Source of the DNA: Scyliorhinus canicula
Taxonomy: Eukaryota
Assembly: GCF_902713615.1 (NCBI RefSeq)
Contig: NW_024055458.1
Coordinates: 1 to 64,000, forward strand
Length of the DNA stretch: 64,000 nucleotides
Direction: 5' to 3'
Shown here: in pieces, positions 1,479 through 54,014 of the stretch
Layout of the letters: every line of letters begins with the position of its first letter
Numbering within the stretch: the first letter of the stretch is position 1
Made by a program: the position numbers and the translations under genes
The notes under the pieces: generated by a model
Told to the model about the DNA's origin: nothing
The model's input: only the letters and a program-made list of their open reading frames with translations
The model's database searches: none

Positions 1479-1517
1479 CACAGTGTCACATTCCCTGAGC
1501 TGCTCCATACAATAACC
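1479..1517 (-). other. JH 23-bp-spacer recombination signal sequence
   Basis: Plus strand: CACAGTG (1479-1485), 23 nt, ACAATAACC (1509-1517). Confidence 0.93.
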
Positions 1518-1839
1518 GGACCTGCACAAAATAGACAGAAATCCACCATTATTTTAAACATTCACAAACCAACGGCAAAGAAAATTCACGATTAATTTTC
1601 AGGAAATTATATTAATATTTGTGGATACCGTTCTCTCTTCGTAAATGACCGAATGTTTTACATTTCACAGACATGGAAATGTTATTGAAAACACCAACTG
1701 TGACTAACTAACGACCACCAAATTTCCATTTTCATTCTTATTATTTTGTCAGTGCTGGAAATAATTAATACTTCACTGTGAATAAAGTTGGATTGTAAAA
1801 GCGAGCACTGAGCCAGCCTCAGTTAATTAGTGCTGAGGG

Positions 1840-1907
1840 GCTTTTTGTATTGACAGTAACTGCTGTGCTACCCAGCTATCACAGTGAGACACAGCGTGTC
1901 AAATACT
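1840..1907 (-). other. IGHD: DH2 segment (ATAGCTGGGTAG, 1868-1879) flanked by 12/12 RSS
   Basis: Plus strand: GCTTTTTGT (1840-1848), 12 nt, TGCTGTG (1861-1867), 12-nt D, CACAGTG (1880-1886), 12 nt, TCAAATACT (1899-1907). The 12/12 arrangement is typical of shark IgM D2. Confidence 0.93.
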
Positions 1908-2219
1908 GCGGCAGACTGTTAACTGTAAAATACAGAGATTTAATTTCACTGCTCACACAAAAAACTAACTCTCTCTCTTCCAAGAGCGAATGGGTGAGTT
2001 ATTTCAGCTTGTCCTGATCATTACATTTATAAAGAGGGTCGGAACATTTTTAAAACCTCTGTGCAGATTTAGCGAGTCGGTCAACAGAGATAAAGTGGAA
2101 GATTTTTATACCTTTTTGTAAATTAATATTACTTCCAAACTTTGTTTTATTTAAAACTCATTTACATTGACGATCCTGTTGTGGCGCTGATCACCAATTT
2201 GAACAAACTCTTTCACTGA

Positions 2220-2297
2220 GGTTTTTGTATGAGGATGTCGCTGTGCACAGCACTGTGACCCACTGTAGTCACAGTGACAGATACCCGCACAAAAACT
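2220..2297 (-). other. IGHD: DH1 segment (ACTACAGTGGGT, 2258-2269) flanked by a 12-RSS (V side) and a 22-RSS (D2 side)
   Basis: Plus strand: GGTTTTTGT (2220-2228), 22 nt, CACTGTG (2251-2257), 12-nt D, CACAGTG (2270-2276), 12 nt, ACAAAAACT (2289-2297). Confidence 0.95.
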
Positions 2298-2667
2298 GCA
2301 CTCACTCTCTGTTCAATCCTGCTGCTCAATATTCACTTCAAATACACGTTTACTTCTGATCTAATTTACTATTTATACAGCAGTTTATCAAATCCAATGT
2401 ACATAGATTTTCCCAAGTATCAGAAATAATAAAACGATGATTATATTCAAGTCTGTATTTGCTGAAACTGTGAACAGTAAATATAAACAGACAAAAGCTC
2501 ATCCTATTAGATCGATTGGTTTGTTCGGGTTTACTGTTTAATTTTCTCTGTGTGAGTTATGTAAGAAGCAGCTTGTGTTTTGATTCTGATCACTGACATC
2601 AATATTACATTTGAATCAAGTGCTGACCTTCAGGTTAAGGTGCAAATTGCTGAATTCCCTCTCGAGC

Positions 2668-2706
2668 TGTTCTTGTGCGGGTCCAGCCCTGGTTCCTCTC
2701 GCTGTG
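2668..2706 (-). other. VH 23-bp-spacer RSS
   Basis: Minus strand: CACAGCG (2706-2700), 23 nt AGAGGAACCAGGGCTGGACCCGC, ACAAGAACA (2676-2668). Confidence 0.93.
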
Positions 2707-3011
2707 GCCTCTTGCACAGTAATAGATGGCGGTGTCTTCGGTCTTCAGGTTCGTCATGGCCAAAGAGAAGATGTTGTTTGAAGTGTCTTTGGACGCAGTG
2801 AATCGATCTTTAATGGCTGGGGCGTAGTTGCTGTTGGATGAAATATAGTAATATACCAACCACTCCAGCCCCTGGCCGGGAACCTGCCGGACCCAGTGCA
2901 TGTAAGCGGTGCCGAGATCGAAGCCGCTGGTTTTACAGGTCAGTGTCAGGGAGCCTCCGGGACGCCCGGTCCCTGCCTCTGGCTGAGTCAACACAACATC
3001 CGACTGGACAC
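2707..3011 (-). CDS. IGHV: Ig heavy-chain V exon, shark IgM-type VH, open frame
   Basis: TTTTTACAG acceptor, then [101 protein letters not shown]. Both canonical Cys, WVRQ and GLEW are present; sequence style matches elasmobranch IgM VH. Confidence 0.97.
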
Positions 3012-8537: not shown

Positions 8538-9260
8538 ACCTTGTCGTATGTCTGTGAAACAAGGAACACTTGCAGCTGTCAAGAAAAATAGCTCAAAAAA
8601 TTTCATCTTTGTTGTCCGCAGTGCATTATGGATATTTACTGGCAGGACAAAATCAGAAATGCAGCAATTCTCTCAAAGACAGAGCTTCCTTCAAAACAAT
8701 GAAAAAAGGTGGTTTGCACGGTTCTAGTGTGGTCTCCAAATGGAAGATGGTCACATGAATTTCCACTTCGCGAAGCAGCTGGAGCCACGCATCCAGTGGG
8801 GAGCCAAATATTCCACTTCAAGGTTTCTTCTAAGTTTGACATAATGTCCCTAAACCGAGATATTGAGCATCGCAATTGGGTGTCACCAGCAGCAAACGGA
8901 AAACATGGCGGCACTTCCGGTGGGCTGGTGTGAGCCACCTGGACCAGTGGATTCAGCAGCTTTGACATTGACACAAACCGAGAATATGAAAACCCAGAAC
9001 GACAATTGGGAGCTTCATGTGCAACACTTGTCTCGAAATCAGTGGATATTTGTTGGTTATCTATTGGAAATTGAAGGATGCCTGTGACCTGAGTGACATT
9101 CAGTTGTACACAGCATGGGTGCTTTCGCACACACACACGAAACACAGATATACAGTTTCTCACACACGCCTTCTCTCTGTCTTACACGCACACCCACAAT
9201 TTCCCATTCAACTTAAGATCCCAGCTTAACTTCCTTGGAGGCTTTGGAGCCAATGACCCC

Positions 9261-11088
9261 ATATCAAACTAAGCTAGAGTCACAGACAGACTCTCGGCGG
9301 TTGTGGCAAGGACGAGGCAACATAACGGGCTACAAAGCGAAGCCGAGCAGTATCTCTGGCAGCAGTGCACCCCTCCCCGATGAACTTAACGCATTCTATG
9401 CTCGGTTTGAGCAGGTAACCAACAACCCGCTATCGAGTGCCCCAGCAACCCATAATTCACCCATACCCACCATCACAGTTTCCGAAGTCAGATCGGCCTT
9501 CCTGAAAGTGAACCCACGGAAGGCGATGGGTCCGGACGGGATCCCTGGTCGTGCACTCAGAACCTGCGCGGACCAGCTGGCAGAGGTTTTCACAGACATC
9601 TTTAACCTATCCCTACTCCACTCCGAGGTCCCCACCTGCTTCAAGAAGACCACCATCATACCGGTACCAAAGAAGAATGAGGCAACGTGCCTCAATGACT
9701 ACCGTCCGGTGGCCCTGACGTCAGTTGTAATGAAGTGCTTTGAGAGGCTGATCATGAAGCGCATCACCTCCATACTCCCGGAACGCCTTGACCCACTTCA
9801 ATTCACATACCGTCGTAACCGGTCCACATCAGACGCCATTTCCCTGGCCCTACACTCATCCCTAGAGCATCTCGAAAACAAGGACTCCTACATCAGACTC
9901 TTATTTATTGACTACAGCTCCGCCTTCAACACCATAATCCCAGCCAAGCTCATATCAAAGCTCCAAAACCTAGGACTTGGCTCTCCACTCTGCAACTGGA
10001 TCCTTGACTTTCTGACCAACAGACCACAGTCAGTAAGAATGAACACCAACACCTCCTCCACAATAGTCCTCAACACCGGTGCCCCGCAAGGCTGCGTACT
10101 TAGCCCCCTACTCTACTCCCTGTACACACACGACTGCATGGCAAAACTTGGTTCCAACTCCATCTACAAGTTTGCTGACGATACGACCATAGTGGGCCGG
10201 ATCTCGAACAACGACGAGTCTGAATACAGGAGGGAGATAGAGAACTTAGTGGAGTGGTGCAACGACAACAATCTCTCCCTTAATGCCAGCAAAACTAAAG
10301 AGCTGGTCATCGACTTCAGGAAGCATAGTACTGTACACACCCCTGTCAGCATCAACGGAGCCGAGGTAGAGATGGTGAGCAGTTTCAAATTCCTAGGGGT
10401 GCACATCACCAAAAATCTATCCTGGTCCACTCATGTCGACGCTATCACCAAGAAAGCACAACAGCGCCTTTACTTCCTCAGGAAACTAAGGAAATTTGTC
10501 ATGTCCACATTAACCCTTACCAACTTTTACAGATACACTATAGAGAGCATCCTCTCGGGCTGCATCACAGCCTGGTATGGCAACTGCTCGGCCCAGGACC
10601 GCAAGGAACTTCAGAGAGTCGTGAATACCGCCCAGTCCATCACACGAACCTGCCTCCCATCCATTGATTCCATCTACACCTCCCGCTGCCGGGGGAAAGC
10701 AGGCAGCATAATCAAGGATCCCTCCCACCCGGCTTACTCACTTTTCCAACTTCTTCCATCGGGCAGGAGATTCAGAAGTCTGAGAACACGGACGAACAGA
10801 CTCAAAAACAGCTTCTTCCCCACTGTCACCAGACTCCTAAATGACCCTTTTATGGACTGTCCTCATTAACACTACACCCTGTCTGCTTCATCCGATGCCA
10901 ATGCTTATGTAGTTACATTGTATATCTTGTGTTGCCCTATTATGTATTCTCATGTATTTTCTTGAATTCTGTTCAATTCCCTTTTCTTCCCATGTACTGA
11001 ATGATCTGTTGAGCTGCTTGCAGAAAAATACTTTTCACTGTACCTCGGTACACGTGACAATAAACAAATCCAATCCAATCCAATCCAA
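9261..11088 (+). mobile_element. 5'-truncated Rex1/Babar-type LINE with uninterrupted RT frame and (AATCC)n tail
   Basis: ORF 9235-10869 contains [54 protein letters not shown] and KFADD; AATAAA and (AATCC)n at about 11058-11088. Confidence 0.9.
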
Positions 11089-12628: not shown

Positions 12629-12632
12629 AAGC

Positions 12633-13577
12633 TGTTGCACGTTTTGCTATGGGCGTAAAACGCGTTTATTGGGGTGTATTAACTTCCAAGTGCTTAACAC
12701 CACTAGGCTCTGTCTTATGTATTTATTCAGCTTTAGGAGTCGCCAGTTGCCGTATAGACAACGTCACTAGTATTCCAAGGTCAAGTTCAAAGTAATAAAG
12801 ACGATACACCGATTAGTAAGGTCCAAACGATAATATTTATTATACAGTTATAATAAGTATTCATGCACACACTAAGAGACTAAGCTATGACTAAACTAAA
12901 GTAATCAGAATACTTATCTAACAGGAACAGCCAAGGTCAGGGAGCGAGGCCTTCGTCCTGGTCTTGGGCTGCAACCTTCAGCAAGCGTTCTGGTCACTGG
13001 GGGTTCTAGCGGGCTTAGTTCGCGTAGCGAGCGTCGTACTGGCACTTACGGTTCGGCGGCTGGTGCTCGACGGCTGGAGTCAGAGTGGATCTTCAAGTTC
13101 TTGGTCAGGGCCGGAGCACGGAATAACAGACCGGACAACACGAGGTCCCTATCTTTTATAGGGGTTCCATTGTCCTTCCCTCTTCTCGGGCGGGCTCTAC
13201 CTATTGGATCAATTTCTTATCGATACTGGATTAATTCCCCAATGCGAGGGGGTCTCCGTGATGGAGGGGGCGTTTCTTATGCCCTTTTGTTTGGAGGTTT
13301 CTGGTGCCTCGATGTCTGGGCCTTGATTAGAATGTGTCCATTCAGAACCAAATGTATCTATTGTGTGGGTGTTCAAGTCTGATCGCGTCATTAGCATGCA
13401 AAGCGTTTTGCCATTTGCACCTAGTTAAGGTCTTCTCACCTGAGCCCAAACTGGTTTCTGCTGCTGCAGAATGCAAACTGCTCTTTGCAGACTGCTGTTC
13501 TGGCTAAACTGTCTGTTTCCCAGCAGTCTTAGCGCTTGACCTATTTTGTAGCTCAGCATCCATTTTAGGTGGCTACA
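12633..13577 (-). repeat. 3' LTR
   Basis: TG...CA ends; TATAAAA at 13160-13154 with CCAAT about 45 nt upstream; several AATAAA (e.g. 12841-12836, 12670-12665). Confidence 0.97.
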
Positions 13578-13587
13578 TTCCCTCCTT
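13578..13587 (-). other. Polypurine tract
   Basis: AAGGAGGGAA abuts the TG of the 3' LTR. Confidence 0.85.
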
Positions 13588-13944
13588 GTGATCCTCACAA
13601 TCAAAATATTGTGAAGGATCACAATGTACATCGCCTTGAGTGCATCTGGGTTGCCTTCTTTGTGTCCCCTGACCTCTTGCCAGTTCCTGGGCTACTCTAT
13701 CTTAAACTATGGGAAGAAAATTTTTTTACCTAACATCTCTACTTGGCGCTATGTCAAAGGGGACATGCATTACCATAAACTGGGAACCTCTACCTATCAC
13801 AATTATCCCTAACTTTACTTAAACATTTCCTCACACTCTAAAACCTTAACCATTCACACCACAACATCACATTTCCTAACTCGGCAGTCGAGTATAGGAC
13901 AATACAATACAGGGTCGAATTTTATTCATTCTTTACACAGTGCT

Positions 13945-14286
13945 TTATTCATCATGGGGCAGAGGGGATTGATGAAATCGGAAAATCGGAGATCGAACTC
14001 CATAGACGGAAGGGCAAGAACGGGAGGCTCTCCTCTTCCACTTCCTCAACCTGAGGGTCTGTACAAGGATAACGAGGATCGCAATCACCAGTAGTGATTC
14101 GATTACGTATGACATGGAGTACCATGTCATAAATTTAGTGCACCAGGTCTGAACCTCACTGATCAGAGCTGAGCACTGGGGAGTGGTTGTAAGGGAAACA
14201 TTTACGGTGGGGGTTGTGGGGGAAACGTGTCTTGTTTCCACACAAACAAATACAACAGTTAACAACAGTAGGTGAGCTTCCATCAT
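13945..14286 (-). CDS. 113-aa predicted type I membrane protein in the env position
   Basis: Hydrophobic N-terminus (aa 5-16), T/P-rich ectodomain with NVS sequon and two Cys, hydrophobic aa ~60-78, then RLRKWKRR; splice-acceptor-like site at 14385-14384. Confidence 0.7.
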   Translation of the reverse strand: MMEAHLLLLTVVFVCVETRHVSPTTPTVNVSLTTTPQCSALISEVQTWCTKFMTWYSMSYVIESLLVIAILVILVQTLRLRKWKRRASRSCPSVYGVRSPIFRFHQSPLPHDE

Positions 14287-15425
14287 CTTTATCTAGGTTT
14301 TCTTCTTTCTTCCTCCTGTATTGGACAATCCTTGCTTCGATCCCTGTCTCGACCTTCGAAAGCTATGGGATCAAGCACAGTATCTGTCAATACACAGTTT
14401 AAGATCTTTACTTGTTATTGCATCTGTCTTTTATATTCCGATTGACCCTTTAAAAATGACTGGCCAAGTCACTCCCTGTGACTCCCCTCATTTTTTCTTT
14501 TTCAAAAGCGAATTTGAAGACCAGAATACACCTAACAATCCTTCTCCTGCGAGCCGTCTTGCAGGCTTTGCTAGTTTACCATCCGAATGTTCCTGGATGT
14601 AAATAGCATGTGGGATGGCGGCCGAAGGGCTGCCTAACGAAAAATGAAAACAAAATTTTGAAAGAAACGTCCGAATGAGTTGCGTATGGGTCGCTACGGG
14701 TACGAGTTGGATGGGATCCCCGGGTAGGGCGTGCTGTGCCATACCCGAGCTTGGCTGACCAAAGTGGGTTCTCAGACAGGGCGGGTCCTCAGTGCCGTTT
14801 GTCCACTGCCTGAGTAACCTGGAGAAAACGGGTACGAATGTGGTTACCGTGACTTGCAGCCTCTATTCGCCGAATAGAGGGGCACCTAAAAACAATGGAG
14901 CCAAGATGCTCCGTTCTGAAAACAGGGCACAAGTCGTGAACCGTGTCGGTTCACCAGAGGATACAACTGAAGTTCTCAGATGTTTCGGCAGAGAAACTAT
15001 TGGGTGTGTAAGGCTGTCACAAGTCTTACAACTTTGAAAAGATATCCAATCAAACTGGGTGTTTGGAACCGAAGTTCTCAAAGGTTTCGGCAGAGAAACT
15101 ATTGTGTATGTGAGGTGGTCACAATCTTTTCAGCTGAAAAGAAGATGTCCATCCTCCAGCTGAACCATTTACATTCCTGAAACGAAACAAACATAAAACG
15201 ATAGACAAACATACGTGCAGGTTCCATCAGAAAGGACATCGTTTCCCTCAAACGATTCCTATTTTACATCATCTGGACACCTCACTTTTCCTCTGTCTCT
15301 GTGAACAGGGTCACAAAGGGGTTGCCGTGTCGGGAGTCAGACACCGTGTCGTTCTGCTCTCCCGGATCCCACACCCTTGTGTGGATCAGGCATGCTATTT
15401 TCGAATTGTGTGACCGGGGGTCACT

Positions 15426-17042
15426 TTAGTCATTTCGGACAAGTCTGTATGAATTGTCCCTGTGCCATAGTGTTGTGTCAAGTGTGTTGTCGGGGTAGTC
15501 GGGGTCGGGTGGTGGTTCTGGGTTTTTAAGGTAAGTGACTTCCATGGGGTCACTGGAGTCGGGGTCGTAGTTGGTGCAGTGTGGGCTGTATGGCTGTGTG
15601 CTGTCGCTGTCCTCAGAGTCAGTGTCTGTCCTGCTGTCTCTGCTGTGGCAGCTTGTGGGCGTTTCGGGGCGTGGTCTGTTGTGGTCTGTGGGCGGAGTCG
15701 TGGGCGAGTCCTTTGATAAACTGGTCTGTGAGGGGGATGGTGGAAAAGTGTCTCTAGTGGGCGGGGTGAAGTGTTCTGCTGCATCTAGCAGTACATGATG
15801 AGCATGGTTAGACTGTGTTCCATATGCCTTTAACTGGTTGATATGGAACCACGCGGTCTTCCCATTAGGATATTTTACCCTGTAAACTGAGGGGCTAATT
15901 TTATCCGAAATTGAGTATGGACCGGAATATTTTGGAGCCAAAAAACTGCTGGGGTTGTAAACAGATAACATTACCTGTTGCCCAACCTGGAATTCTGTGG
16001 GGTGTACGGTCTTATTAAAACAAGCTGTGCGTTGTTGACGGCGTTTTCCAAGCTGAACTGCGGCTGCAATCTGTGCAGACCTCACAGTCTCAACCAAGTC
16101 TTTAACCGTCTTTTCGTGTGTGAGGGCTGTCACCTCGGGGCTGGTCATGTCCAGTCCTAAAAGGAATTCTGTTGCTTTCATAGGGCGTCCGGTCATGAGT
16201 GTGTGTGGTGTGTAGCCTGTGGAAGTGGAAACAGTGTTCCTTATGAACATGAGTGCAAATGGGAGCACTGAATCCCATGTGGAGCTGTTCTCCTGAACCA
16301 TTTTTCTAAGGGTAGTTTTTAGAGTCCGATTCATGCGCTCCACAATCCCGCTGGACTGTGGATGATACGCAATATGGAAATTTTGTTTTATCCCAAATAT
16401 TGTCAGGACGTTCCTCATGACCCGCCCTGTAAAGTGAGATCCCTGGTCCGAATCGATACTTCGGGATAAACCCCATCTCGTGAAGATGTGGTGGGTCAGG
16501 ATCTTTGCAGCTGTCTTTGCAGTATTTGTTCTAGAGGGGAATGCCTCTACCCATTTGGTAAAGGTGTCGATGACCACCAGAACGTATTTATAGCCATTCC
16601 TGCAAGGGGGCAATGGTCCTATGAAATCGATCTGGAGGTTTGTCCAGGGGCCGTTTACTGGGCGAGTATGCCGAAGTTGTGCCTTCTTAGAATACCGCTC
16701 CGGGTTATTCTGTGCACAAATAAGGCAATTCTCTATATAATGTGTGACATCAGTCCTGAGATTAGGCCACCAACAGAGTTGCCTGAGGTGCCTCGTTGTT
16801 GCATCAATTCCCTGATGCCCGTGGTTATCATGGAATAAAGCAATCATTGCATTCCTGTCCTGCTGCGGGACCACATAAAGTTGTTCCTTAATGATCACAC
16901 CCTCATGTGTGGTCAGTGCGTTTTTAAATCTCTCGTACTCTGGCACAAAATTGCCTTTAAAAACCTCCCTGAGGTCCTTATCCTGCTTTTGTGCTGCTAC
17001 AAGATCTTTAATATCTGTCTGTGAGATATGGACTGCGCTCAC
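15426..17042 (-). CDS. pol: Integrase domain of pol (HHCC, DDE, GPY/F) with long low-complexity tail
   Basis: HDNHGH...CLIC; LQIDFIGP, IDSDQGSHF, YHPQSSGIVERMNRTLK; KYSGPY. Confidence 0.95.
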   Translation of the reverse strand: MSAVHISQTDIKDLVAAQKQDKDLREVFKGNFVPEYERFKNALTTHEGVIIKEQLYVVPQQDRNAMIALFHDNHGHQGIDATTRHLRQLCWWPNLRTDVTHYIENCLICAQNNPERYSKKAQLRHTRPVNGPWTNLQIDFIGPLPPCRNGYKYVLVVIDTFTKWVEAFPSRTNTAKTAAKILTHHIFTRWGLSRSIDSDQGSHFTGRVMRNVLTIFGIKQNFHIAYHPQSSGIVERMNRTLKTTLRKMVQENSSTWDSVLPFALMFIRNTVSTSTGYTPHTLMTGRPMKATEFLLGLDMTSPEVTALTHEKTVKDLVETVRSAQIAAAVQLGKRRQQRTACFNKTVHPTEFQVGQQVMLSVYNPSSFLAPKYSGPYSISDKISPSVYRVKYPNGKTAWFHINQLKAYGTQSNHAHHVLLDAAEHFTPPTRDTFPPSPSQTSLSKDSPTTPPTDHNRPRPETPTSCHSRDSRTDTDSEDSDSTQPYSPHCTNYDPDSSDPMEVTYLKNPEPPPDPDYPDNTLDTTLWHRDNSYRLVRND

Positions 17043-17061
17043 AGGGGCGCTAGCTGGTGCG

Positions 17062-19509
17062 CTAGCTGGGGGGGGTCCATAAGTGTCCTCGCCTGGAACC
17101 TGCCTTAGCCAGTGCGTCGGCTTTTACATTCCCAGGGGGGGATGACCTATGGTGACTTCTTACTTTTATTATGCCGAAGGTCCTGTCCTTCGCTTTTCCT
17201 AAAATATGCCGGAGTAGAGGGGCTGATGGAAGGGGTTTCCCGTCTGCGGAGACAAAACCTCGTGTCCTCCACAGGGGTAGAAAATCGGTCAAACTGTTAC
17301 AGACATATAAGCTGTCTGAATATATGTCTGCTGGGCTGGGGAAAGAAGCGGCGTGGTCCACTATATACGCTATGGCCGCGAGCTCTGCTGCCTGCGCGCC
17401 TAAGTGACCTGGTAACTTAAGAGCGATTTCTTCGAGAGCGCGCCCCTGCGCGTCCTCTACATAGATGCCGCATCCTGTGATACGCTCACCATTTAAAACT
17501 GTGGAGGAACCGTCTACATAAATCCTCAAGGGTCCACACGTGTCTGTGGGTTGGGGGCTTTGTTTTGGGTTCCCTATCTTCCTGGGGGGTGTTTTTGCTA
17601 TAAAGGGTCCTGTGTTATGCAGGGGAGCTACAATTTCACAGTCATGGGGCTGTCCTGGGTATTGGAGGTTGTCTGCTAAATATGTGTGTGTGCGGGTCCG
17701 TTTTACTGTAATGTCCCGTCCTTGTAAAAGTAGTGTCCATCTAGCTACCCTAATCTGGCTAACTGAACCGTCCTTCAGCCGACCGTCTAGGAGTAGCTGT
17801 GTGGGTGTGTGTTCGGTCAGAATAGTAATGGGGTTGAGTCCGGTGATGTATGAGAAATACTGCACTGCCCAGAAGACAGCAAGGAGGTGCCTCTCACAGG
17901 CAGAGAATCCTTGTTCTACCGGGTCTAACAGTCGGGAGGCATAAGCCACTGGCCTTAGCTGCTCGTGCCGTTCCTGAAGCAACACGGCCGAGAGGGTCAG
18001 ATCGGTGCTCGCTACCTCTATTGCATAGGGTGAAAGTTGGTCTGGGACTAGCAGCGCGGGTGCTGCACCAAGGGCTCGTTTTAACTCCTCCACAGCGCCT
18101 GTATGCTGCGGAAGCCATTCCCAGGGGGCTCCTTTCTTAAGGAGGTCTGAGAGTGGGGCGGCTTTTGTCGCGAATCCGTCGATGTGGTTCCGACAATAAC
18201 CAACCAGTCCTAAAAACGACCGGAGGGCTGATACATTCTGGGGAAGGGGCAATTTGACAATCGAATCAATTCTCTTGAATTCGATCTCGCGTTTGCCGTG
18301 TGTGATGATTGTTCCCAAATACATCACTTTAGTTTCCAAAATCTGGGCCTTTCTTGGGTTAACTTTACATCCAATTGAAGTCAACAGTTCCAGGAGTTCG
18401 GCCAGAAGCGTAATGTGCTCTGCCTTTGTGTCTGTCTGCAGTAGTAGGTCGTCTACATACTGTACCAGACATTCGGGGCGGGAGAATTTCTCTAAACCAC
18501 TTGCCAACTGTCGGTGGAAAATGGAGGGGGAATTGTGGAATCCTTGTGGAAGGCATGTCCACGTATACTGCTGTGTTTTAAAAGTGAAGGCAAATTTGTA
18601 CTGGCACGCTTTTGCCAATGGTATTGACCAGAATCCGTTACTGATGTCCAATACCGTGAAGTATTTGGAGTTGAGTCCCTGTTTGAGCATGGTCTCGGGA
18701 CTAGTAGCTACCGTTGGGGCTACTGCGGGAGTGACTTTGTTGAGTTCCCGATAATCGATGGTCAGACGCCATGATCCATCGGGCTTCCTCACTGGCCAAA
18801 TAGGGGCATTATTGGTCGAGGCTACCGATCTGAGCACACCTTGCTCCAATAAGCTTTCTATCACCTTTTCTATTTCCACCTCTGCTTCCAGGGGAAATCT
18901 ATACTGTTTCTGTGGTCGGGGGTCCTGTCCGGTAACGTGAACTGGTCCAGTCATTCTGCCACAGTCATGACGGTGACTTGCAAATGCTGTCCTGTGTTTG
19001 TTCAGTAGGGCTTTTATTTGTCTGTCGGTGTGGAGTGTAGTCAGGTCGAATGAGTACTCTCCCACTGCGCTAATCCGATTAGCGTAGTCTCCTACTGTGA
19101 GGGTGGCTGGTGCTCTGTCTGATCTAGCCATTCGCCAGACACACTGGTTCACTGGGTCGAACGACAAGCTATGAGCGTTCATAAAGTCTATCCCCAGGAT
19201 GTGTTCTGCTGTCCGGGGAAGATTTACTAGAACTACGGAGTGCTTGGTTGTGATGTTCCCTAGCTGGATCGCTACGGGTGCTGTGATGTGTCCCTGCTGC
19301 GAGTGTCCGGTGAACCCGCTAAGTGTAATGGTGGAGGTGGTCGGCCACGTGTCTGCGTGTGCCGTGATGGTAGAGTTAATGGTGGTGCGGGAGCCTCCTG
19401 TGTCCCACAGTAACTCTATGGGCTTCCCTTTTACTCTGGCTGTGACTACGGGTCTCCCTGATGAGTCCCATAGTGTGTCACAGACCCAAGTGGGGGAGCC
19501 CGAACACCG
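17062..19509 (-). CDS. pol: Protease-RT-tether-RNase H part of pol, in frame with gag after a single TGA
   Basis: 109 open codons (19509-19183) with LLWDTGGS and HILGIDF (aspartic protease). RT motifs LDISNGFW, PQGFHNSP and YVDD (18459-18448). RNase H motifs IYVDGSS, AQAAELAAI, IYSDS and GNVKADALAK. Confidence 0.95.
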   Translation of the reverse strand, partial: RCSGSPTWVCDTLWDSSGRPVVTARVKGKPIELLWDTGGSRTTINSTITAHADTWPTTSTITLSGFTGHSQQGHITAPVAIQLGNITTKHSVVLVNLPRTAEHILGIDFMNAHSLSFDPVNQCVWRMARSDRAPATLTVGDYANRISAVGEYSFDLTTLHTDRQIKALLNKHRTAFASHRHDCGRMTGPVHVTGQDPRPQKQYRFPLEAEVEIEKVIESLLEQGVLRSVASTNNAPIWPVRKPDGSWRLTIDYRELNKVTPAVAPTVATSPETMLKQGLNSKYFTVLDISNGFWSIPLAKACQYKFAFTFKTQQYTWTCLPQGFHNSPSIFHRQLASGLEKFSRPECLVQYVDDLLLQTDTKAEHITLLAELLELLTSIGCKVNPRKAQILETKVMYLGTIITHGKREIEFKRIDSIVKLPLPQNVSALRSFLGLVGYCRNHIDGFATKAAPLSDLLKKGAPWEWLPQHTGAVEELKRALGAAPALLVPDQLSPYAIEVASTDLTLSAVLLQERHEQLRPVAYASRLLDPVEQGFSACERHLLAVFWAVQYFSYITGLNPITILTEHTPTQLLLDGRLKDGSVSQIRVARWTLLLQGRDITVKRTRTHTYLADNLQYPGQPHDCEIVAPLHNTGPFIAKTPPRKIGNPKQSPQPTDTCGPLRIYVDGSSTVLNGERITGCGIYVEDAQGRALEEIALKLPGHLGAQAAELAAIAYIVDHAASFPSPADIYSDSLYVCNSLTDFLPLWRTRGFVSADGKPLPSAPLLRHILGKAKDRTFGIIKVRSHHRSSPPGNVKADALAKAGSRRGHLWTPPS

Positions 19510-21258
19510 TCAGTTCGTCTCGTCCACATTGGTGGGTCCTGACTGTACTGCTACATTGTGGATGGGTTTTGCCTTACTGCGGTTCAGAGTGCCTGTCTGC
19601 TGGCCTCTCTGAGATCGCTGGGGTGCATTGCATTCTTTTGCCCAATGCCCTAACTGTCCACAGTTATAGCATTCCTGGCCTTTCTGTTGTGGGCTGCTCT
19701 TCCCTTCATTTACCCATGCGGGTTTCTGATGCTCTCTCACTGCCTGAATATCTGCTGCAGCCTGAGCCTCTTCTGGGGATTGAACCTTACTCTTTGCCTG
19801 AATTGATTGCTCCCAAGCGCGGGACAACCTTTTCAGGACCCATTTCTCATTATGGGCCTCTTCTGAGGGGTCATAATTGTTGCAAGCGCTCTGCCCTGCC
19901 TCTGTTGCGTGTGAGATTAGGGTGCGCGTCCATTTGACCATATTTTCCCGGTTCAAATGCGCTCTATTTAACTCGCCGAAAACTGCGTTGAAATGAATCC
20001 ACAGCCTTCCTGCGAATGCTGTGGGGTGTTCGGATCTTTTCTGCCGGCACTTATTAAGTCCTTCTACGGGGTCACCTCGATTATACCCTATGGCATCTAA
20101 AATGGAGGTGTGCATCTCTTCTAGGGTGCCTCCGGCAACGTTCTGTGGGTCGGGGAGGGCTGCTACTACTGATTGGTCTAAGCTCAGAACTGTGAGCTTA
20201 ACCTGCTCTCTCTCATCCAGGCCGTACATGGTAGCCTGCTGTTTTACTTTAGCGAAGAACTGGTGGGGGTCTGCGGTGGGGAGGAACGGAGTGATCTTCT
20301 CACATGCGTCCCTGAGCTGGGTTACAGTTAAGGGGGTGGTGTAGGTTATATCTGGTGCGCCTTCTGTTATAGCTTTTCTCTGCGTGGTTACGGGGTTCAT
20401 GGGTGCGGATATGATCTGATCTGTGGGGGGTGGGGGTGCCTGCCTTTTCTGTTGCGCGGCTGGCGCACATGTTCCCTGAACATATCGCTGCGCTGTTTCC
20501 CTTAATTCTTGCCAATCTGGGGCATTTTCTCCATCTAACTGGGTTCCAAAGGTGCTTTGGAACCCGTTTTGCACCGAAAGCAGCGATTGCAGCTCTGCAA
20601 TCTGTTTCCTGCATTTCGCGTGATCCACAGTACTTTGCCTTTGCTCTGTGGTTGCAGCATGGAGTGCTCTCAAAGCTGCTTTGAGATCAGAGCATTGCCT
20701 CTGCAACGCCTCCACCTGCTTGTCTGATTCCTCTCTTATCAGAACGGCACTTTGCACGTCCTGATAAGCCTTTTCGTACTGGGTCTGGGAACTGCTGAGA
20801 TGGGCTAGACAAGACTGATGTGCCCTCTTGGCATCATCCACCTCTCTACCTTTCTCTATCAACTTCCCTCTTAGATCCAGATTCTCTTTCTCAATGTCCC
20901 TGACATCGACCTTACTCATGCGGTTCCTTTCCTCTAATTCTGCCCGGAGCGTCCTGACGACCTCCTCTGTGCCTCGCAATTGTGCCAAACAGGACACAAT
21001 CGCCATCGGCTTACGTGCTTTACTGAGGGTCTTTTTGTGAATTTGAGAGAGGTTCTCCCACCAAGTATGTCCTATACTTCCGGGACCTGTCTCCTCATTC
21101 AAACAAAACTCTTTCCAAAGGGGCCATCCCTTTCCTTGTAAATATTTGCGGAGTTCCAGCTCCCACGTGGGACACTGGCCTACCCTGCTACTGCTGCTGG
21201 TCGCTGCGACCACAAACTTTTCTGGATCCATCAGACGTTCCATTGCCTGCATGGCCAT
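19510..21258 (-). CDS. gag: Gag (582 aa) with long coiled coil and one CCHC zinc knuckle
   Basis: AAAATGGCC start; CYNCGQLGHWAKEC at 19671-19630; position 5' of pro/pol. Confidence 0.92.
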   Translation of the reverse strand: MAMQAMERLMDPEKFVVAATSSSSRVGQCPTWELELRKYLQGKGWPLWKEFCLNEETGPGSIGHTWWENLSQIHKKTLSKARKPMAIVSCLAQLRGTEEVVRTLRAELEERNRMSKVDVRDIEKENLDLRGKLIEKGREVDDAKRAHQSCLAHLSSSQTQYEKAYQDVQSAVLIREESDKQVEALQRQCSDLKAALRALHAATTEQRQSTVDHAKCRKQIAELQSLLSVQNGFQSTFGTQLDGENAPDWQELRETAQRYVQGTCAPAAQQKRQAPPPPTDQIISAPMNPVTTQRKAITEGAPDITYTTPLTVTQLRDACEKITPFLPTADPHQFFAKVKQQATMYGLDEREQVKLTVLSLDQSVVAALPDPQNVAGGTLEEMHTSILDAIGYNRGDPVEGLNKCRQKRSEHPTAFAGRLWIHFNAVFGELNRAHLNRENMVKWTRTLISHATEAGQSACNNYDPSEEAHNEKWVLKRLSRAWEQSIQAKSKVQSPEEAQAAADIQAVREHQKPAWVNEGKSSPQQKGQECYNCGQLGHWAKECNAPQRSQRGQQTGTLNRSKAKPIHNVAVQSGPTNVDETN

Positions 21259-21568
21259 TTTCTCTGACTCTCTTTTAGTTAATTTGGAACAGGGGGTTGC
21301 TGGGGTTGTGTTTCAAGAAACGGGTACGGCTTACACTATGTTCCGTTCACAAAACTACCGAATGTTTGTCGCAACAAAAATGCTTTCAGTTTTACCTTAC
21401 AGCCCTGTTAGTACGCATGCACTAAAACACACTTCCGAATTACGCTTATTAGTTTGAACACCTTGAATACTCGTGATTTTCTTTACTTTCTTACTTTCTC
21501 TGTAATTTGGAGTTCTAATTCAAATTTCAGGGTCCTGGACGGTGTGGGGTTTCCACTTACAACCGTGT

Positions 21569-21586
21569 CCCGTCAGGAAGTCGCCA
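21569..21586 (-). other. Primer-binding-site-like sequence TGGCGACTTCCTGACGGG
   Basis: TGG-starting motif 5 nt after the CA end of the 5' LTR; cognate tRNA not resolved. Confidence 0.6.
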
Positions 21587-21591
21587 CTAAA

Positions 21592-22536
21592 TGTTGCACG
21601 TTTTGCTATGGGCGTAAAACGCGTTTATTGGGGTGTATTAACTTCCAAGTGCTTAACACCACTAGGCTCTGTCTTATGTATTTATTCAGCTTTAGGAGTC
21701 GCCAGTTGCCGTATAGACAACGTCACTAGTATTCCAAGGTCAAGTTCAAAGTAATAAAGACGATACACCGATTAGTAAGGTCCAAACGATAATATTTATT
21801 ATACAGTTATAATAAATATTCATGCACACACTAAGAGACTAAGCTATGACTAAACTAAAGTAATCAGAATACTTATCTAACAGGAACAGGCAAGGTCAGG
21901 GAGCGAGTCCTTCGTCCTGGTCTTGGGCTGCAACCTTCAGCAAGCGTTCTGGTCACTGGGGGTTCTAGCGGGCTTAGTTCGCGTAGCGAGCGTCGTACTG
22001 GCACTTACGGTTCGGCCGCTGGTGCTCGACGGCTGGAGTCAGAGTGGATCTTCAAGTTCTTGGTCAGGGCCGGAGCACGGAATAACAGACCGGACAACAC
22101 GAGGTCCCTATCTTTTATAGGGGTTCCATTGTCCTTCCCTCTTCTCGGGCGGGCTCTACCTATTGGATCAATTTCTTATCGATACTGGATTAATTCCCCA
22201 ATGCGAGGGGGTCTCCGTGATGGAGGGGGCGTTTCTTATGCCCTTTTGTTTGGAGGTTTCTGGTGCCTCGATGTCTGGGCCTTGATTAGAATGTGTCCAT
22301 TCAGAACCAAATGTATCTATTGTGTGGGTGTTCAAGTCTGATCGGCTCATTAGCATGCAAAGCGTTTTGCCATTTGCACCTAGTTAAGGTCTTCTCACCT
22401 GAGCCCAAACTGGTTTCTGCTGCTGCAGAATGCAAACTGCTCTTTGCAGACTGCTGTTCTGGCTAAACTGTCTGTTTCCCAGCAGTCTTAGCGCTTGACC
22501 TATTTTGTAGCTCAGCATCCATTTTAGGTGGCTACA
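21592..22536 (-). repeat. 5' LTR
   Basis: 945 bp, about 6 substitutions relative to the 3' LTR; TATAAAA at 22119-22113. Confidence 0.97.
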
Positions 22537-22540
22537 AAGC

Positions 22541-48805: not shown

Positions 48806-51210
48806 CCATAAGGGCCGTTTAGTCTGGAACACATCATTATTCATTGTTTGCAAAATGGCGTGGCCAATAATTGCAATTATGTTTCAGCACATGACGACAT
48901 TTGATTGAGATTACCTTCCACATCCTACGCTACACTCAATATGTACTTGTAATGTATTGTCCTGAGTGACCTAGACAGTAATATCATGCTGTCCATTCCA
49001 TTGAAAAGGCAAATGTATCTTTCAAATTACTTACAAATCGGTTCACCTCGCTTTCTCTGTCTGAGGCTGCATCTAAATCAGTTGAGCCCTCTTCTCTCTC
49101 TCAGACTTAACTCACTCACACAGGCACACAGCAGCCGAGTCTGGAACCTAGTGTTTAAATGGCACCTCGTGTTTAAATCTTTTTTGCTGAAGGCACTTCT
49201 GAAAATAATTAAGCACCAAAACGTCATCAGAGCAAAATTCTGTGCCGGAAAGGCACCAGCTCATTCACTTAACCGCTCTCCCTCCCACCCTCTCGCTCTC
49301 CCCTCTCTCTCTCTCTCTCTCGCTCTGACATCAAGTACCTTCAAACTTTCTACATTAGTATAACCTCTGTTAACAGATTGTTGCTTTAATTTCCCTTCAT
49401 CTCTCCAGATTATTATTTGTATTATGACCAGTGAAGATCATCTGTGCACCTCCCGATCGGTTACTGTGTTTTTAAACAAATGATATAACTTTTTCAAGGG
49501 AATGGGAATGGATGTGAATGTACTGTTGAGGCCGGCAGCAATCTGTGTGGGTGTTCTTGATGCTGTCAGAGTGAGTTCACCCTCACAGGCAGGAAGACTG
49601 TTCACGGTGATAACATGAAACTGACGCCTGCTGTTTCATTCTCAGGTAACACAACTTCCTGTTTCTCTGCTGCCGGTTCCAAACCACACATCTCACTTCT
49701 GAACAGAAAATAAATCCAGGGACCACAATCTGGTGAGAACATCTGTTAATGCGGCTTATATTTACCCACAGAGTCAGGGCAGATTCACACAGATCACTTT
49801 GCAGTGACATTTACAAATGAACCTGTTGTGATCGGTTCAAAGCTTCCATTCCAGGACATAACTGGATGGTCAGTGGATCAGTCACTGAGTTTCCCCGGTT
49901 CTCTGAAGCCAGGAAATAACATCTTGTTCCATTTCACCATGTTATCATTCTCCCTCTCCCTGTGTAATTTGTCTTTACTGTTTCTCAGATTTTATCTCTC
50001 AACCCCGCCTGTCTCTTTCTCATTTCTTCGCTCAGTTTCACTCTCTCTCTCTGTATCTTTCTCCATCTTTATATGTGTCTCTTTAATTAAACTTCTAAAA
50101 CAAAACCATCAAGGTTTGAATAGAGTAATTAAAGAGAGACTATTACAACTGGCAGGAGGGTCTGTAACCAGAGGACACAGATTTACTGTATTGAACAGGA
50201 GGATTGTTTTTACACAGAGAGTTGTTATAAACTGGAACACACAAGGGGCAATTATGATGGAATCAGATTTAACAGCAACGTTGGAAAATGACGGATAAAT
50301 ATTTGAAGGTATTAAGATCTGAAGGATGAGACGGAATGGGACCAGTTGGATGGTTCATCTCTAATCATTGTCCCAGCACCTTTTCTGTATCTACTTCTGT
50401 CCCCTCTTGTGCTGATCCTGTCTTTAGGCAGCGCCTGGGTGCGTGTAGAAAATTGCCACTAATCTTACAGAGGGTCGTTGCTGTTTGCAATCCATTACTT
50501 TGGACAAAGTAACAGTGAATAGCACTTGTTTCGAAAAAGAACAATTATCGTTAACATTTGAGGCACTGATTCGTCCTGTGATGGGGCGTTGGCTTTTAGT
50601 CTTTGTGTCATAATCTGATGATTTAAATCTAAGTGCCCATAATTTGAGACGGTACGTTGGTACAGTGGTTAGCACTGCGGCCTGCGCTTCTGAGGACCCG
50701 AGTTCGATCCCGGTCCTAGGTTACTGTCCGTGTGGAGGTTGCATATTCTCCCCGTGATTGCGTGTGATTCACCTCCAAAACTGTGAAGGGTCGGTGGATT
50801 GACCACGCTAAATTACCCTCTAATTGAAAATATAAATAAATGCGTACTCTAAATTTACAAAAGAAATGTAGTGTTCATAAGCTGCCTGGACCGGCTCTTG
50901 CGTGTCTGTGTAAATGGAGAACTGTTCGTAACAATAAGAAGAAACAGATGTTTTTGTTTCCCCCGACAGATGCACCATTATAGAGTCTGCCGTAATTGTC
51001 CTCCCATTGGGTATAAACGATCTGAGGTGGAGTCAATCACACGCACCTCACTCAATGAAGTTTCCAATCCGCTTTTCCCACACACATCCCTGTCACTCAG
51101 CATGATGCCTGGGCTGGGGCCCGGAGCATCATTGCTTTCTGCTAGATTCACTTCTTCTTAAAATCAGCTGTTCATGAGATCCCCTGCCTCCCTTCACCGA
51201 AGATTATCAC

Positions 51211-51834
51211 CAGTCTCTGTTATTGATACATTGGAGCCGGTCTCTGTGATTATTATTATACCAGACCCCAGTCTGACCCCGGGCCCGGCAGTCTCTGTTA
51301 TTGATACACTGGAGCCGGTCTCTGTGATTATTATTATACCAGACCCCAGTCTGACCCCGGGCCCGGCAGTCTCTGTTATTGATACACTGGAGCCGGTCTC
51401 TGTGATTATTATTATACCTGACCCCAGTCTGACCCCGGGCCCGGCAGTCTGTGTTATTGATACACTGGAGCCGGTCTCTGTGATTATTATTATACCAGAC
51501 CCCAGTCTGACCCCGGACCCGGCAGTCTCTGTTATTGGTGCACTGGAGCCGGTCTCTGTGATTATTATTATACCAGACCCCAGTCTGACCCCGGGCCCGG
51601 CAGTCTCTGTTATTGATACACTGGAGCCGGTCTCTGTGATTATTATTATACCTGACCCCAGTCTGACCCCGGGCCCTGCAGTCTCTGTTATTGATACACT
51701 GGAGCCGGTCTCTGTGATTATTATTATACCAGACCGCAGTCTGACCCCGGGTCCGGCAGTCTCTGTTATTGATACACTGGAGCCGGTCTCTGTGATTATT
51801 ATTATACCAGACCCCAGTCTTCCCCGGGAACCGG
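51211..51834. repeat. 78-bp minisatellite, 8 copies
   Basis: Unit CAGTCTCTGTTATTGATACACTGGAGCCGGTCTCTGTGATTATTATTATACCAGACCCCAGTCTGACCCCGGGCCCGG starts at 51211, 51289 ... 51757. Confidence 0.97.
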
Positions 51835-51914
51835 CAATTTTAAATCACTTCGCAAATCCAAGGGAAGATGTCTTTTTGTTTTCACAAGAAGGCGGAAACG
51901 TCAAAGCAGCAATG

Positions 51915-53774
51915 ATAAGAACATAAGAACATAAGAACATAAGAACTAGGAGCAGGAGTAGGCCATCTGGCCCCTCGAGCCTGCTCCGCCATTCAATTAG
52001 ATCATGGCTGATCTTTTGTGGACTCAGCTCCACTTTCCGGCCCGAACACCATAACCCTTAATCCCTTTATTCTTCAAAAAACTATCTATCTTTACCTTAA
52101 AAACATGTAATGAAGGAGCCTCAACTGCTTCACTGGGCAAGGAATTCCATAGATTCACAACCCTTTGGGTGAAGAAGTTCCTCCTAAACTCAGTCCTAAA
52201 TCTACTTCCCCTTATTTTGAGGCTATGCCCCCTAGTTCTGCTGTCACCCGCCAGTGGAAACAACCTGCCCGCATCTATCCTATCTATTCCCTTCATAATT
52301 TTTAATGTTTCTATAAGATCCCCCCTCATCCTTCTAAATTCCAACGAGTACAGTCCCAGTCTACTCAACCTCTCCTCATAATTCAACCCCTTCAGCTCTG
52401 GGATTAAACTAGTGAATCTCCTCTGCACACCCTCCAGCGCCAGTACGTCCTTTCTCAAGTAAGGAGACCAAAACTGAACACAATACTCCAGGTGTGGCCG
52501 CACTAACACCTTATACAATTGCAACATAACCTCCCTAGTCTTAAACTCCATCCCTCTAGCAATGAAGGACAAAATTCCATTTGCCTTCTTAATCACCTGT
52601 TGCACTTGTAAACCAACCTTCTGTGACTCATGCACTAGCACACCCAAGTCTCTCTGAACAGCGGCATGCTTTAATATTTTATCGTTTAAATAATAATCCC
52701 GATTGCTGTTATTCCTACCAAAATGGATAACCTCACATTTGTCAACATTGTATTCCATCTGCCAGACCCGAGCCCATTCACTTAACCTATCCAAATCCCT
52801 CTGCAGACTTCCAGTATCCTCTGCACTTTTCGCTTTACCACTCATCTTAGTGTTCTCTGCAAACTTGGACACATTGCCCTTGGTCCCCAACTCCAAATCA
52901 TCAATGTAAATTGTGAACAATTGTGGGCCCAACACGGATCCCTGAGGGACACCACTTGCTACTGATTGCCAACCAGAGAAACACCCATTAATCCCAACTC
53001 TTTGCTTTCTATTAATTAACCAATCCTCTATCCATGCTACTACTTTACCCTTAATGCCATGCATCTTTATCTTATGCAGCAACCTTTTGTGTGGCACCTT
53101 GTCAAAGGCTTTCTGGAAATCCAGATATACCACATCCATCGGCTCCCCGTTATCTACTGCACTGGTAATGTCCTCAAAACATTCCACTAAATTAGTTAGG
53201 CACGACCTGCCTTTTACGAACCCATGCTGCGTCTGCCCAATGGGACAATTTCTATCCAGATGCCTCGCAATTTCTTCCCTGATGATAGATTCCAGCATCT
53301 TCCCTATTACCGAAGTTAAACTCACTGGCCTATAATTTCCTGCTTTCTGCCTACCTCCTTTTTTAAACAGTGGCGTCACGTTTGCTAATTTCCAATCCAC
53401 CGGGACCACCCCAGAGTCTAGTGAATTTCGGTAAATTATCACTCGTGCATCTGCAATTTCCCTAGCCATCTCTTTTAGCACTCTGGGATGCATTCCATCA
53501 GGGCCAGGAGACTCGTCTACCTTTAGCCCCATTAGCTTGCCCATCACTCCCTCCTTAGTGATAACAATCCTCTCAAGGTCCTCACCTGTCATAGCCTCAT
53601 TTCTATCCGTCGCTGGCATGTTATTTGTGTCTTCCACTGTGAAGACCGACCCAAAAAACCTGTTCAGTTCCTCAGCCATTTCCTCATTTCCCATTATTAA
53701 AACTCCTTTCTCATCCTCTAAAGGACCAATATTTACCTTAGCCACTCTTTTTTGTCTAATATATTTGTAAAAGC
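51915..53774 (-). mobile_element. Young 5'-truncated CR1 LINE with uninterrupted RT frame
   Basis: ORF 52024-53940 from SFYKYIR onward has NYRPVSLTSVIGK, YLDFQKAFDKVPH and GVPQGSVLGP; (GTTCTTAT)4 tail at 51915-51946. Confidence 0.95.
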
Positions 53775-54014
53775 TGGCCTTGGTGGGAGTGTTCGTGCAA
53801 CTCAAACACGTTATGATGCCCCAGGAACAGGTTTTACTAAACGAGGAGATGGGCCAGAGTGCTGTGTCGTCATCTCCTCCATCTGATTTTTTGAAAATAA
53901 TGGATAAAAGAAACATAAAAATTTTAATGTAAAGTATCACCGGGAGAATTGCCTGGTATTGTGTAGTCGAGGCTTTCGACTGGTGCTTGCAGCATTACAA
54001 AGTTACCACACAGT

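What the first reader, a model, noticed from the sequence alone, without database searches (positions are those of the whole stretch)
12633..22536. Near-intact young retrovirus-like provirus of an unusual lineage inside the Ig/TCR region
Seen: LTRs about 99.4% identical, 4-bp TSD, and the interrupted host LINE rejoins cleanly. Domain order is PR-RT-tether-RNH-IN; RT motifs LDISNGFW, PQGFHNSP and YVDD look spuma-like; there is no classical env. Known: tether plus a second RNase H is the vertebrate retrovirus architecture, also shared by the sister lokiretrovirus and Odin lineages. As I recall, lokiretroviruses were reported from lampreys, bony fishes, amphibians and reptiles but not chondrichthyans. 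Inference: this may be a shark loki-like or new basal retrovirus lineage, recently or still active, that carries a mini membrane protein instead of a fusion-type Env.
Basis: partly seen in the sequence, partly recalled or inferred. Interest (0 to 1): 0.85.

Follow-up and report, generated by a model that had tools for sequence, protein, structure and literature searches.

The report
Env-less shark retrovirus with mini-membrane gene
This is a young copy of a shark endogenous retrovirus family with more than a thousand copies, related to snakehead retrovirus and not to lokiretroviruses, which has no envelope gene but keeps, under purifying selection, a small gene for a predicted membrane protein that likely helps the element copy or move.

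Summary
The provirus is real: minus strand, 945-bp LTRs with 6 mismatches, AAGC target duplication, gag-PR-RT-tether-RNaseH-IN, no env. This copy is frameshifted between RNase H and integrase. It is not loki-like: RT falls among canonical retroviruses (window+loki rejected, AU p=0.0005), and a whale-shark relative, Rh_ty_ERV2, is already listed beside snakehead retrovirus in clade Huo (PMC6001957). It is one of at least 1,100-1,900 copies in several subfamilies, so its place among Ig/TCR segments is likely incidental. Three features I did not find described: (1) none of 68 measured siblings has an env-sized ORF, yet a 113-aa ORF (predicted signal peptide, CX10C helix, transmembrane segment, basic tail) is under purifying selection (dN/dS 0.11, core 0.04) and has no detectable homolog; (2) gag and pol are separated by an in-frame UGA-CGG (70 of 71 readable copies) followed by a conserved stem, likely readthrough; (3) primer sites vary among likely tRNA-Arg types. 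Best reading: an env-less, self-copying clade-Huo ERV family with a membrane accessory protein. A FAST/sORF2-like cell-to-cell role is possible (about 0.25) but untested. New variant of a known kind; interest 0.5.

The parts
12629..12632 (.). target-site duplication AAGC, left copy
12633..13577 (-). 3' LTR, 945 bp
13578..13587 (-). polypurine tract next to the 3' LTR
13945..14286 (-). 113-aa ORF: predicted signal peptide (1-18), Thr/Pro-rich stalk with an N-glycosylation sequon, CX10C amphipathic helix, predicted TM (61-78), basic patch (7 K/R in 15 residues), short tail
   Evidence: open in 70 of 79 sibling loci; dN/dS 0.11; hydropathy and moment
14633..14652 (-). candidate splice acceptor 346 nt upstream of the small ORF (consensus match only; seen in the window's subfamily, not at this place in subfamily B)
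15426..17123 (-). integrase frame: H2C2 (16871-16701), rve core (16637-16359), SH3/GPY-type C-terminal domain (15956-15822), acidic/Pro-rich tail; out of frame with the rest of pol in this copy (break near 17070)
17062..19509 (-). pol, 5' part: protease (19446-19177), RT core (18792-18304), tether (18117-17722), RNase H (17526-17095)
19420..19512 (-). gag stop UGA-CGG in frame with pol, followed after 8 nt by a predicted extended stem
19510..21258 (-). gag, 582 aa: N-terminal helical region, capsid-like region, one CCHC zinc knuckle
21567..21586 (-). primer-binding site of tRNA-Arg type (an imperfect variant in this copy), 5 nt from the LTR
21592..22536 (-). 5' LTR, 945 bp, TATA-like box near 22119
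22537..22540 (.). target-site duplication AAGC, right copy

Best explanation
This is a young provirus of an env-less shark endogenous retrovirus family of more than a thousand copies, whose RT places it with snakehead-retrovirus-like (clade Huo) retroviruses; it likely multiplies inside germ-line cells with its own Gag and Pol, likely primes on tRNA-Arg, likely makes Gag-Pol by reading through a UGA stop, and keeps a 113-residue predicted membrane protein that likely serves as an accessory tying its particles to a cell membrane. Shown: the structure, copy counts, absence of env in siblings, RT placement outside loki and class I, purifying selection on gag, pol and the small ORF, the conserved UGA-CGG, and a host tRNA-Arg(TCT) gene complementary to one primer-site variant. 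Inferred: intracellular retrotransposition, readthrough, the priming tRNA, expression of the small ORF from a spliced RNA, and its role. This copy is frameshifted in pol and so could not supply its own integrase. Confidence in the identity alone is about 0.9; the figure below covers the whole mechanism.
For: RT: loki clade at UFBoot 100 excludes the window, which sits in canonical retroviruses (85) with frog, coelacanth and turtle ERVs (85) (71 sequences, 257 columns). AU test on 27 of those rows: window+loki p=0.0005, window+class I p=0.003, window+ERV-L p=0.051, window+SnRV p=0.30. Rh_ty_ERV2 is printed beside Snakehead_retrovirus under clade Huo in PMC6001957 S2 Fig, and its Gag matches the window's at 24 of 30 residues in one capsid stretch, counted by eye. 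Copy number: 1,117 exact junction-pattern hits and 1,943 small-ORF-pattern hits, 0 for reversed controls. No ORF over 210 codons between pol and the 3' LTR in 68 of 68 measurable loci, out of 79 fetched. dN/dS between subfamilies A and B: gag 0.09, PR-RT-RH 0.06, IN 0.08, small ORF 0.11, its core 0.04; Fisher p=2e-11 on mean counts. Indels inside the ORF sum to multiples of three, while flanks carry many 1-nt indels. TGA at the gag end in 100 of the first 100 listed hits and 70 of 71 readable loci; Gag relatives of another catshark end at the same place.
Against: No foamy-virus or class II RT was available for the tree, and SnRV attaches with only 34% support. Tether (39-45% to loki-type proteins, 28% to SnRV) and IN (42-45% versus 32%) resemble loki more than SnRV, and the IN tree is unresolved. 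The 40 dN/dS pairs are in effect one comparison of two subfamilies. The stem's z-score of -3.05 is reached by 2 of 19 other pol windows, other subfamilies score -0.6 to -2.7, and among 33 distinct copies its pairs are invariant or change on one side, with almost no two-sided changes. A conserved, predicted outward-facing, glycosylated domain is more than a purely intracellular element would be expected to need, which favours rival 1. Several upstream ATGs lie between the candidate acceptor and the ORF.
Confidence: 0.55

Rival explanations
1. The small protein works like a FAST/sORF2 protein: the element is expressed in somatic cells beside the oocyte and passes capsids cell to cell without an Env.
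For: Size, a TM segment, 7 K/R in the 15 residues after it, an amphipathic ectodomain helix (moment 0.59) and a mature ectodomain of about 42 aa fit the criteria in bioRxiv 2025.03.14.642691, where some sORF2 genes also lie downstream of pol. CX10C is kept in 70 of 70 open copies and recalls the cysteine-flanked 11-residue patch of p10 proteins (PMC12945298). The ectodomain helix and TM are the most constrained part (dN/dS 0.04).
Against: No MGxxxS/T myristoylation motif and no Tyr after the TM. It has a second, N-terminal hydrophobic segment like a cleavable signal peptide, which FAST proteins lack (recalled). The loop has 10 residues, not 11. No sequence or structure match was found. TM plus basic patch is common to many type I membrane proteins.
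Confidence: 0.25
2. The small ORF is the remnant of an env gene (signal peptide joined to the membrane-proximal helix, TM and tail), and copies spread by borrowing an Env in trans or the remnant blocks superinfection.
For: It sits at the env position with a candidate acceptor upstream; a Trp-bearing helix before the TM resembles Env membrane-proximal regions (recalled). Env-bearing ERVs exist in the same genome. Env-less SnRV-like elements are reported in a frog (PMC4131045).
Against: No similarity to the env regions of the 16 env-bearing loci fetched out of 78 matches; their RTs, where present, are 34-41% identical and class-I-like by motif. No longer form in any subfamily down to about 80% identity. 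Strong selection on gag and pol points to copying with the element's own proteins. Longer-protein homolog searches with the small ORF were not run.
Confidence: 0.15
3. It is a shark lokiretrovirus or a new basal lineage between loki and canonical retroviruses.
For: Dual RNase H; tether and IN closer to loki-type proteins than to SnRV; over RT plus tether loki-type hits score about 300 bits versus 310 for SnRV; the loki survey found none in 3 chondrichthyan genomes.
Against: RT topology test rejects it; loki RT motifs (LPFGY, DCAQGYW in Loki-Xtr) are not shared; no F-like Env; the IN similarity is shared by the whole frog/coelacanth/turtle group and sits on short branches, as expected of slow evolution; a published clade-Huo relative exists.
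Confidence: 0.05

Closest known systems
Rh_ty_ERV2, whale shark ERV of clade Huo (Xu et al. 2018, PMC6001957, S2 Data and S2 Fig)
   Same: Clearly homologous Gag capsid region and protease start (by eye); listed next to SnRV in the published tree.
   Different: A partial consensus used only as a tree tip; no genome plan, env status or small ORF described in the passages I read. Its printed translation runs from Gag into protease without a marked stop.
Snakehead retrovirus (SnRV); P0014 matches its RT motifs letter for letter
   Same: RT 47-50% identical, same motif set; small 3' accessory ORFs are a feature of SnRV too (PMC12193657); tRNA-Arg primer (recalled for SnRV).
   Different: SnRV has a full Env and is exogenous; its gag-pol is one ORF (recalled); tether 28% and IN 32% only; sister relationship unresolved (34%).
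CmiERV lineage I of elephant shark (PMC4422223) and frog/coelacanth 'NYNRIN-like' Pol proteins
   Same: SnRV-related ERVs of sharks and aquatic vertebrates; best database hits, 52-58% over RT.
   Different: CmiERVs were defined by a downstream Env homolog and dated to over 50 My; genomic context of the frog and coelacanth hits could not be seen.
Lokiretroviruses and Odin elements (PMC7947760, PMC9040795)
   Same: Tether plus second RNase H; similar tether and H2C2-type integrase; Odin also lacks env.
   Different: RT outside the loki clade; no Mononegavirales-F-like Env.
sORF2 of MDG1-group retrotransposons and reovirus FAST proteins (bioRxiv 2025.03.14.642691)
   Same: Small TM protein with an amphipathic ectodomain and a basic patch in an env-less LTR element.
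   Different: No myristoylation motif, has a predicted signal peptide and glycan site, no sequence similarity; host element is Retroviridae, not Metaviridae.
ERV-Spuma.0-Sca of small-spotted catshark (PMC10699275)
   Same: Shark ERV of similar length.
   Different: Different LTR start and length (866 nt), 2.3-kb gag and a 1.3-kb env ORF; three short window motifs were not found in the part of its supplement that is held, where sequence cells are cut at 400 characters: a different element.

Membership tests
Lokiretrovirus | RT within the loki clade, sister to canonical retroviruses | tested here: not met
   Loki clade UFBoot 100 without the window; AU p=0.0005. Loki rows were labelled by motif match to Loki-Xtr and host names, not by a database label.
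Lokiretrovirus | Tether plus second RNase H | tested here: met
   PF17917/PF17919 then PF00075; shared with all retroviruses, so not diagnostic.
Lokiretrovirus | Env related to Mononegavirales fusion glycoprotein | tested here: not met
   No ORF over 210 codons after pol in 68 of 68 measured loci.
Lokiretrovirus | Integrase closest to CGIN1/loki type | tested here: inconclusive
   42-45% to loki-type versus 32% to SnRV; tree unresolved, no CGIN1 row.
Clade Huo (SnRV-like, class III in the wide sense) | Pol/RT groups with SnRV-related ERVs | tested here: met
   nearest published relative Rh_ty_ERV2 printed beside SnRV under clade Huo (tip order from the PDF text, not the drawn tree).
Clade Huo (SnRV-like, class III in the wide sense) | Placement outside foamy viruses (clade Tu) | tested here: inconclusive
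   No foamy sequence in my trees; over RT plus tether foamy Pol scores 213 bits against 310 for SnRV.
Spumaretrovirinae | Gag without a Cys-His box; pol expressed apart from gag (recalled) | tested here: not met
   zf-CCHC present; pol in frame with gag behind a conserved TGA.
ERV4 (PMC4299795) | 5-bp TSD, no zinc finger, no GPF/Y motif, env present | tested here: not met
   4-bp TSD here and in 18 of 30 parsed siblings (5 bp in 2); CCHC and a GPY motif present; no env.
Class I ERV (gamma/epsilon) | RT monophyly with class I | tested here: not met
   AU p=0.003, although TSD length, zinc finger and GPY match the ERV1 column of PMC4299795 Table 1.
sORF2/FAST-like proteins | 60-210 aa with polybasic patch after the TM and an amphipathic ectodomain | tested here: met
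   113 aa; 7 K/R in residues 79-93; moment 0.59 at 42-52.
sORF2/FAST-like proteins | N-terminal myristoylation motif MGxxxS/T; Tyr just after the TM | tested here: not met
   Begins MMEAH; no Tyr after the TM.
sORF2/FAST-like proteins | Single TM, N-out topology, ectodomain of 10-50 aa | tested here: inconclusive
   Two hydrophobic segments; fits only if residues 1-18 are a cleaved signal peptide; no topology predictor was available.
sORF2/FAST-like proteins | Drives cell-cell fusion or capsid transfer | not testable with these tools
   Needs cell assays.

The most novel reading that the evidence does not exclude
A vertebrate retrovirus lineage replaced its Env with a 113-residue FAST/sORF2-like membrane protein and used it to pass capsids from somatic cells into the shark germ line, reaching about two thousand copies: a route so far shown only for insect Metaviridae, here in Retroviridae, coupled with alphavirus-type UGA readthrough.
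Probability: 0.25. Interest if true: 0.85.

Novelty: new variant of a known kind. Interest (0 to 1): 0.5.

Why it matters
The lineage is known, but only as tree tips. This family shows what a young clade-Huo element looks like in a shark. Env-less ERVs are usually taken to shed their surface gene and stay inside the cell (recalled). Here a small surface-type protein has been kept under selection as strong as that on gag and pol through several subfamilies, which makes Env-independent spread of a vertebrate retrovirus testable with one short ORF. The in-frame UGA-CGG differs from the UAG readthrough of gamma- and epsilonretroviruses (recalled) and can be tested with a reporter. With over a thousand copies and some identical LTR pairs, the family is also a likely source of insertion polymorphism in this genome.

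Tried and rejected
Homologs of the small protein: none at E<=10 among 14 candidates of 62-198 aa; ESM Atlas best score 0.87, generic TM proteins; Pfam nothing under E 0.03; single-sequence AlphaFold model is two helices, pTM 0.35, with no BFVD match under E 1.8. Longer proteins were not searched. Expression: no RNA holder listed; four runs only guessed to be RNA, held as contigs, cover the whole element and show no leader-to-3' splice joint among the 15 of 24 joints displayed; no conclusion drawn. The 124-codon frame at 14862-14488 was rejected as a gene: frameshifting indels between subfamilies. An RT/IN chimera with loki was considered and not supported by the IN tree. ERV-Spuma.0-Sca checked and rejected as the same element. 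The NYNRIN paper gave no placement. FastTree run was mis-rooted and used only to label clades; mis-oriented plus-strand loci and was redone. Enrichment in the Ig/TCR region was not tested: 1,943 copies in 4.22 Gb give about 0.03 per 64 kb, and one insertion says nothing. Earlier scan notes: nothing found. Ten literature searches found no description of this family's structure; Repbase and Dfam could not be searched, and PMC8278194 (frog class III ERV, 6 mentions of TGA), PMC13517186 and PMC2717909 were seen only as listings, so UGA readthrough in class III ERVs may already be in print. Supplements of PMC12440569 and of the bioRxiv preprint were not seen.
Full report
Observation. The element spans 12633-22536 on the minus strand. 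Its LTRs are 945 bp with 6 mismatches (99.37%), end TG...CA and are flanked by AAGC. A polypurine tract precedes the 3' LTR and a primer site follows the 5' LTR after 5 nt. Gag (582 aa, one CCHC knuckle) ends in TGA; in the same frame follow protease, RT, tether and RNase H; integrase lies in another frame because of a break near 17070. The capsid region has no Pfam hit but scores 0.94 to retrotransposon-Gag clusters in the ESM Atlas. The flanks are colinear with another LINE copy in the window. A VH with D-type and J-type RSS sites lies about 9.6 kb away, and a TCR-type V 41 kb away. LTR divergence gives about 6 My at the rate assumed in PMC10699275, 14 My at that of PMC4422223 and 1.4 My at the mammalian rate; these are rough.

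Family. Exact patterns find 1,117 gag/pol junctions, 1,943 small-ORF cores and 237 LTR starts of this copy's type, with 0 for reversed controls. I fetched 79 sibling loci: 12 picked by both RT and small-ORF hits, 27 by RT, 20 by the junction pattern and 20 by the small-ORF pattern. They fall into subfamilies about 80-98% identical with the same plan of roughly 9.9 kb. Among the first 59 loci, 52 LTR pairs of 700 bp or more have median identity 99.6%, 2 are identical and the lowest is 97.8%. Of 30 loci with both flanks parsed, 18 have a 4-bp TSD, 2 have 5 bp and 10 have 0-3; 25 could not be parsed and 4 had no LTR pair. In the 47 loci not picked by the small ORF, gag is open in 29, pol in 25 and the small ORF in 41; the last figure is helped by its short length. 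So the pol break in the window is a lesion of this copy, or an assembly error, and the TGA is a family trait.

Placement. The best Pol hits are frog, coelacanth and turtle proteins labelled NYNRIN-like. P0014 matches the SnRV row in the supplement of PMC7947760 motif for motif, and a clade of fish and frog proteins matches Loki-Xtr motifs. In an RT tree of 71 sequences, loki is monophyletic at 100 without the window; the window sits in canonical retroviruses (85), in a frog/coelacanth/turtle group (85) to which SnRV attaches weakly (34). On 27 of these rows, topology tests reject window+loki (AU p=0.0005) and window+class I (0.003) but not window+SnRV (0.30) or, narrowly, window+ERV-L (0.051); 5,000 resamplings, fewer than the program advises. 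No foamy or class II rows were available. Against this, tether and IN are closer to loki-type proteins than to SnRV; the IN tree (51 rows; 3 dropped as short, 13 without a hit) is unresolved and puts the window on a short branch, which I read as slow evolution. The supplement of PMC6001957 holds a whale-shark ERV, Rh_ty_ERV2, whose Gag and protease start are homologous by eye, and which is printed beside SnRV under clade Huo. Gag relatives at 72-79% occur in Scyliorhinus torazame, so the host is likely a catshark. The lineage is therefore known; ERV4 is excluded by TSD, zinc finger and GPY.

No env, but a selected small ORF. In 68 of 68 loci where pol end and polypurine tract were both found (11 of 79 not measurable), the gap is 1.1-2.2 kb and holds no ORF over 210 codons. 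The 113-aa ORF is open in 70 of 79, and all 70 keep CX10C and an N-glycosylation sequon. Between 5 copies of subfamily A and 8 of B, dN/dS is 0.11, and 0.04 over helix, TM and basic patch, against 0.06-0.09 for gag and pol (Fisher p=2e-11). It is thus a real gene of the element. It has no detectable homolog and no match to env regions of 16 of the 78 TLV_coat loci in the genome. It meets the size, basic-patch and amphipathic criteria for sORF2/FAST-like proteins but lacks the myristoylation motif and has a predicted signal peptide.

Gag-Pol and priming. TGA-CGG is present in 100 of the first 100 listed hits and 70 of 71 readable loci. The first 36 nt after the stop are nearly invariant across subfamilies and an extended stem is predicted from 8 nt after it. 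UGA-C with a 3' structure is the alphavirus readthrough signal (PMC3159437, listing only). The structure evidence is moderate: 2 of 19 control windows fold as well, and changes are mostly one-sided. By eye, the printed start of another whale-shark ERV (Rh_ty_ERV4) also has TGA-CGG in frame with its protease, so the trait may be wider. Primer sites come in 13 variants among 44 readable loci, all starting TGGCGAC; one is complementary to a host tRNA-Arg(TCT) gene (1 of 3 loci scanned was a tRNA gene).

Mechanism and verdict. Selection on gag and pol, no env and a very high copy number point to retrotransposition in cis, one of the three routes listed in PMC10435555. The small protein must help that copying; I judge a membrane-tethering accessory most likely, a FAST-like cell-to-cell role next (0.25) and an Env remnant third (0.15). 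Activity today and any effect on the Ig/TCR locus are not shown. New variant of a known kind; interest 0.5.

What I saw of each paper. PMC7947760: parts 1-3 of 4, two supplement searches and one supplement part. PMC6001957: passages, one section, three supplement searches and one part. PMC10699275: parts 1-3 of 4 and supplement pieces. PMC4422223: part 1 of 2. bioRxiv 2025.03.14.642691: passages and one section. Passages only: PMC9040795, PMC10435555, PMC11089739, PMC12945298, PMC12193657, PMC4131045, PMC9447858, PMC12440569, PMC8922424, PMC4299795. Listing only: PMC3159437, PMC13517186, PMC8278194, PMC2717909. Statements marked 'recalled' come from no call.

Noticed in passing
L079, L080, L097 (G000:C1): Pol-less derivatives in more than one subfamily: gag with a different C-terminal part (two CCHC knuckles in L097) plus the small ORF, about 6 kb in L079 and L097; L097 has identical LTRs. 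Likely non-autonomous copies moved in trans; one contig of run X18 skips nearly the same interval.
   Followed up: partly
window 1479-3000: Minus-strand VH with a 23-spacer RSS, a D-like segment between 22- and 12-spacer RSS sites (2257/2270) and a further 23-spacer RSS at 1479: looks like a shark IgH-type V-D-J cluster. The provirus lies about 9.6 kb upstream in the same orientation.
   Followed up: partly
window 63487-63804: TCR alpha/delta-like V segment with an open frame and a 23-spacer RSS, on the same contig as the VH cluster.
   Followed up: partly
L001-L059, primer-binding sites: Thirteen primer-site variants among 44 readable copies, suggesting priming by several tRNA-Arg species; one copy matches the tRNA beyond the usual 18 nt (C7:137070120).
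   Followed up: partly
L063-L078: The genome also holds env-bearing ERVs with class-I-like RT motifs (78 TLV_coat matches, several with open frames over 500 codons), unrelated to this family.
   Followed up: partly
window 15784-15395: A 129-codon frame overlapping the integrase tail is open in many siblings; probably a by-product of the integrase frame, not tested.
   Followed up: no
window 9217-10869 and 52024-53994: Two LINE reverse-transcriptase frames of 550 and 656 codons, of two different LINE types.
   Followed up: no
window 51162-51926: Tandem repeat of about 78 nt that is open in several frames.
   Followed up: no
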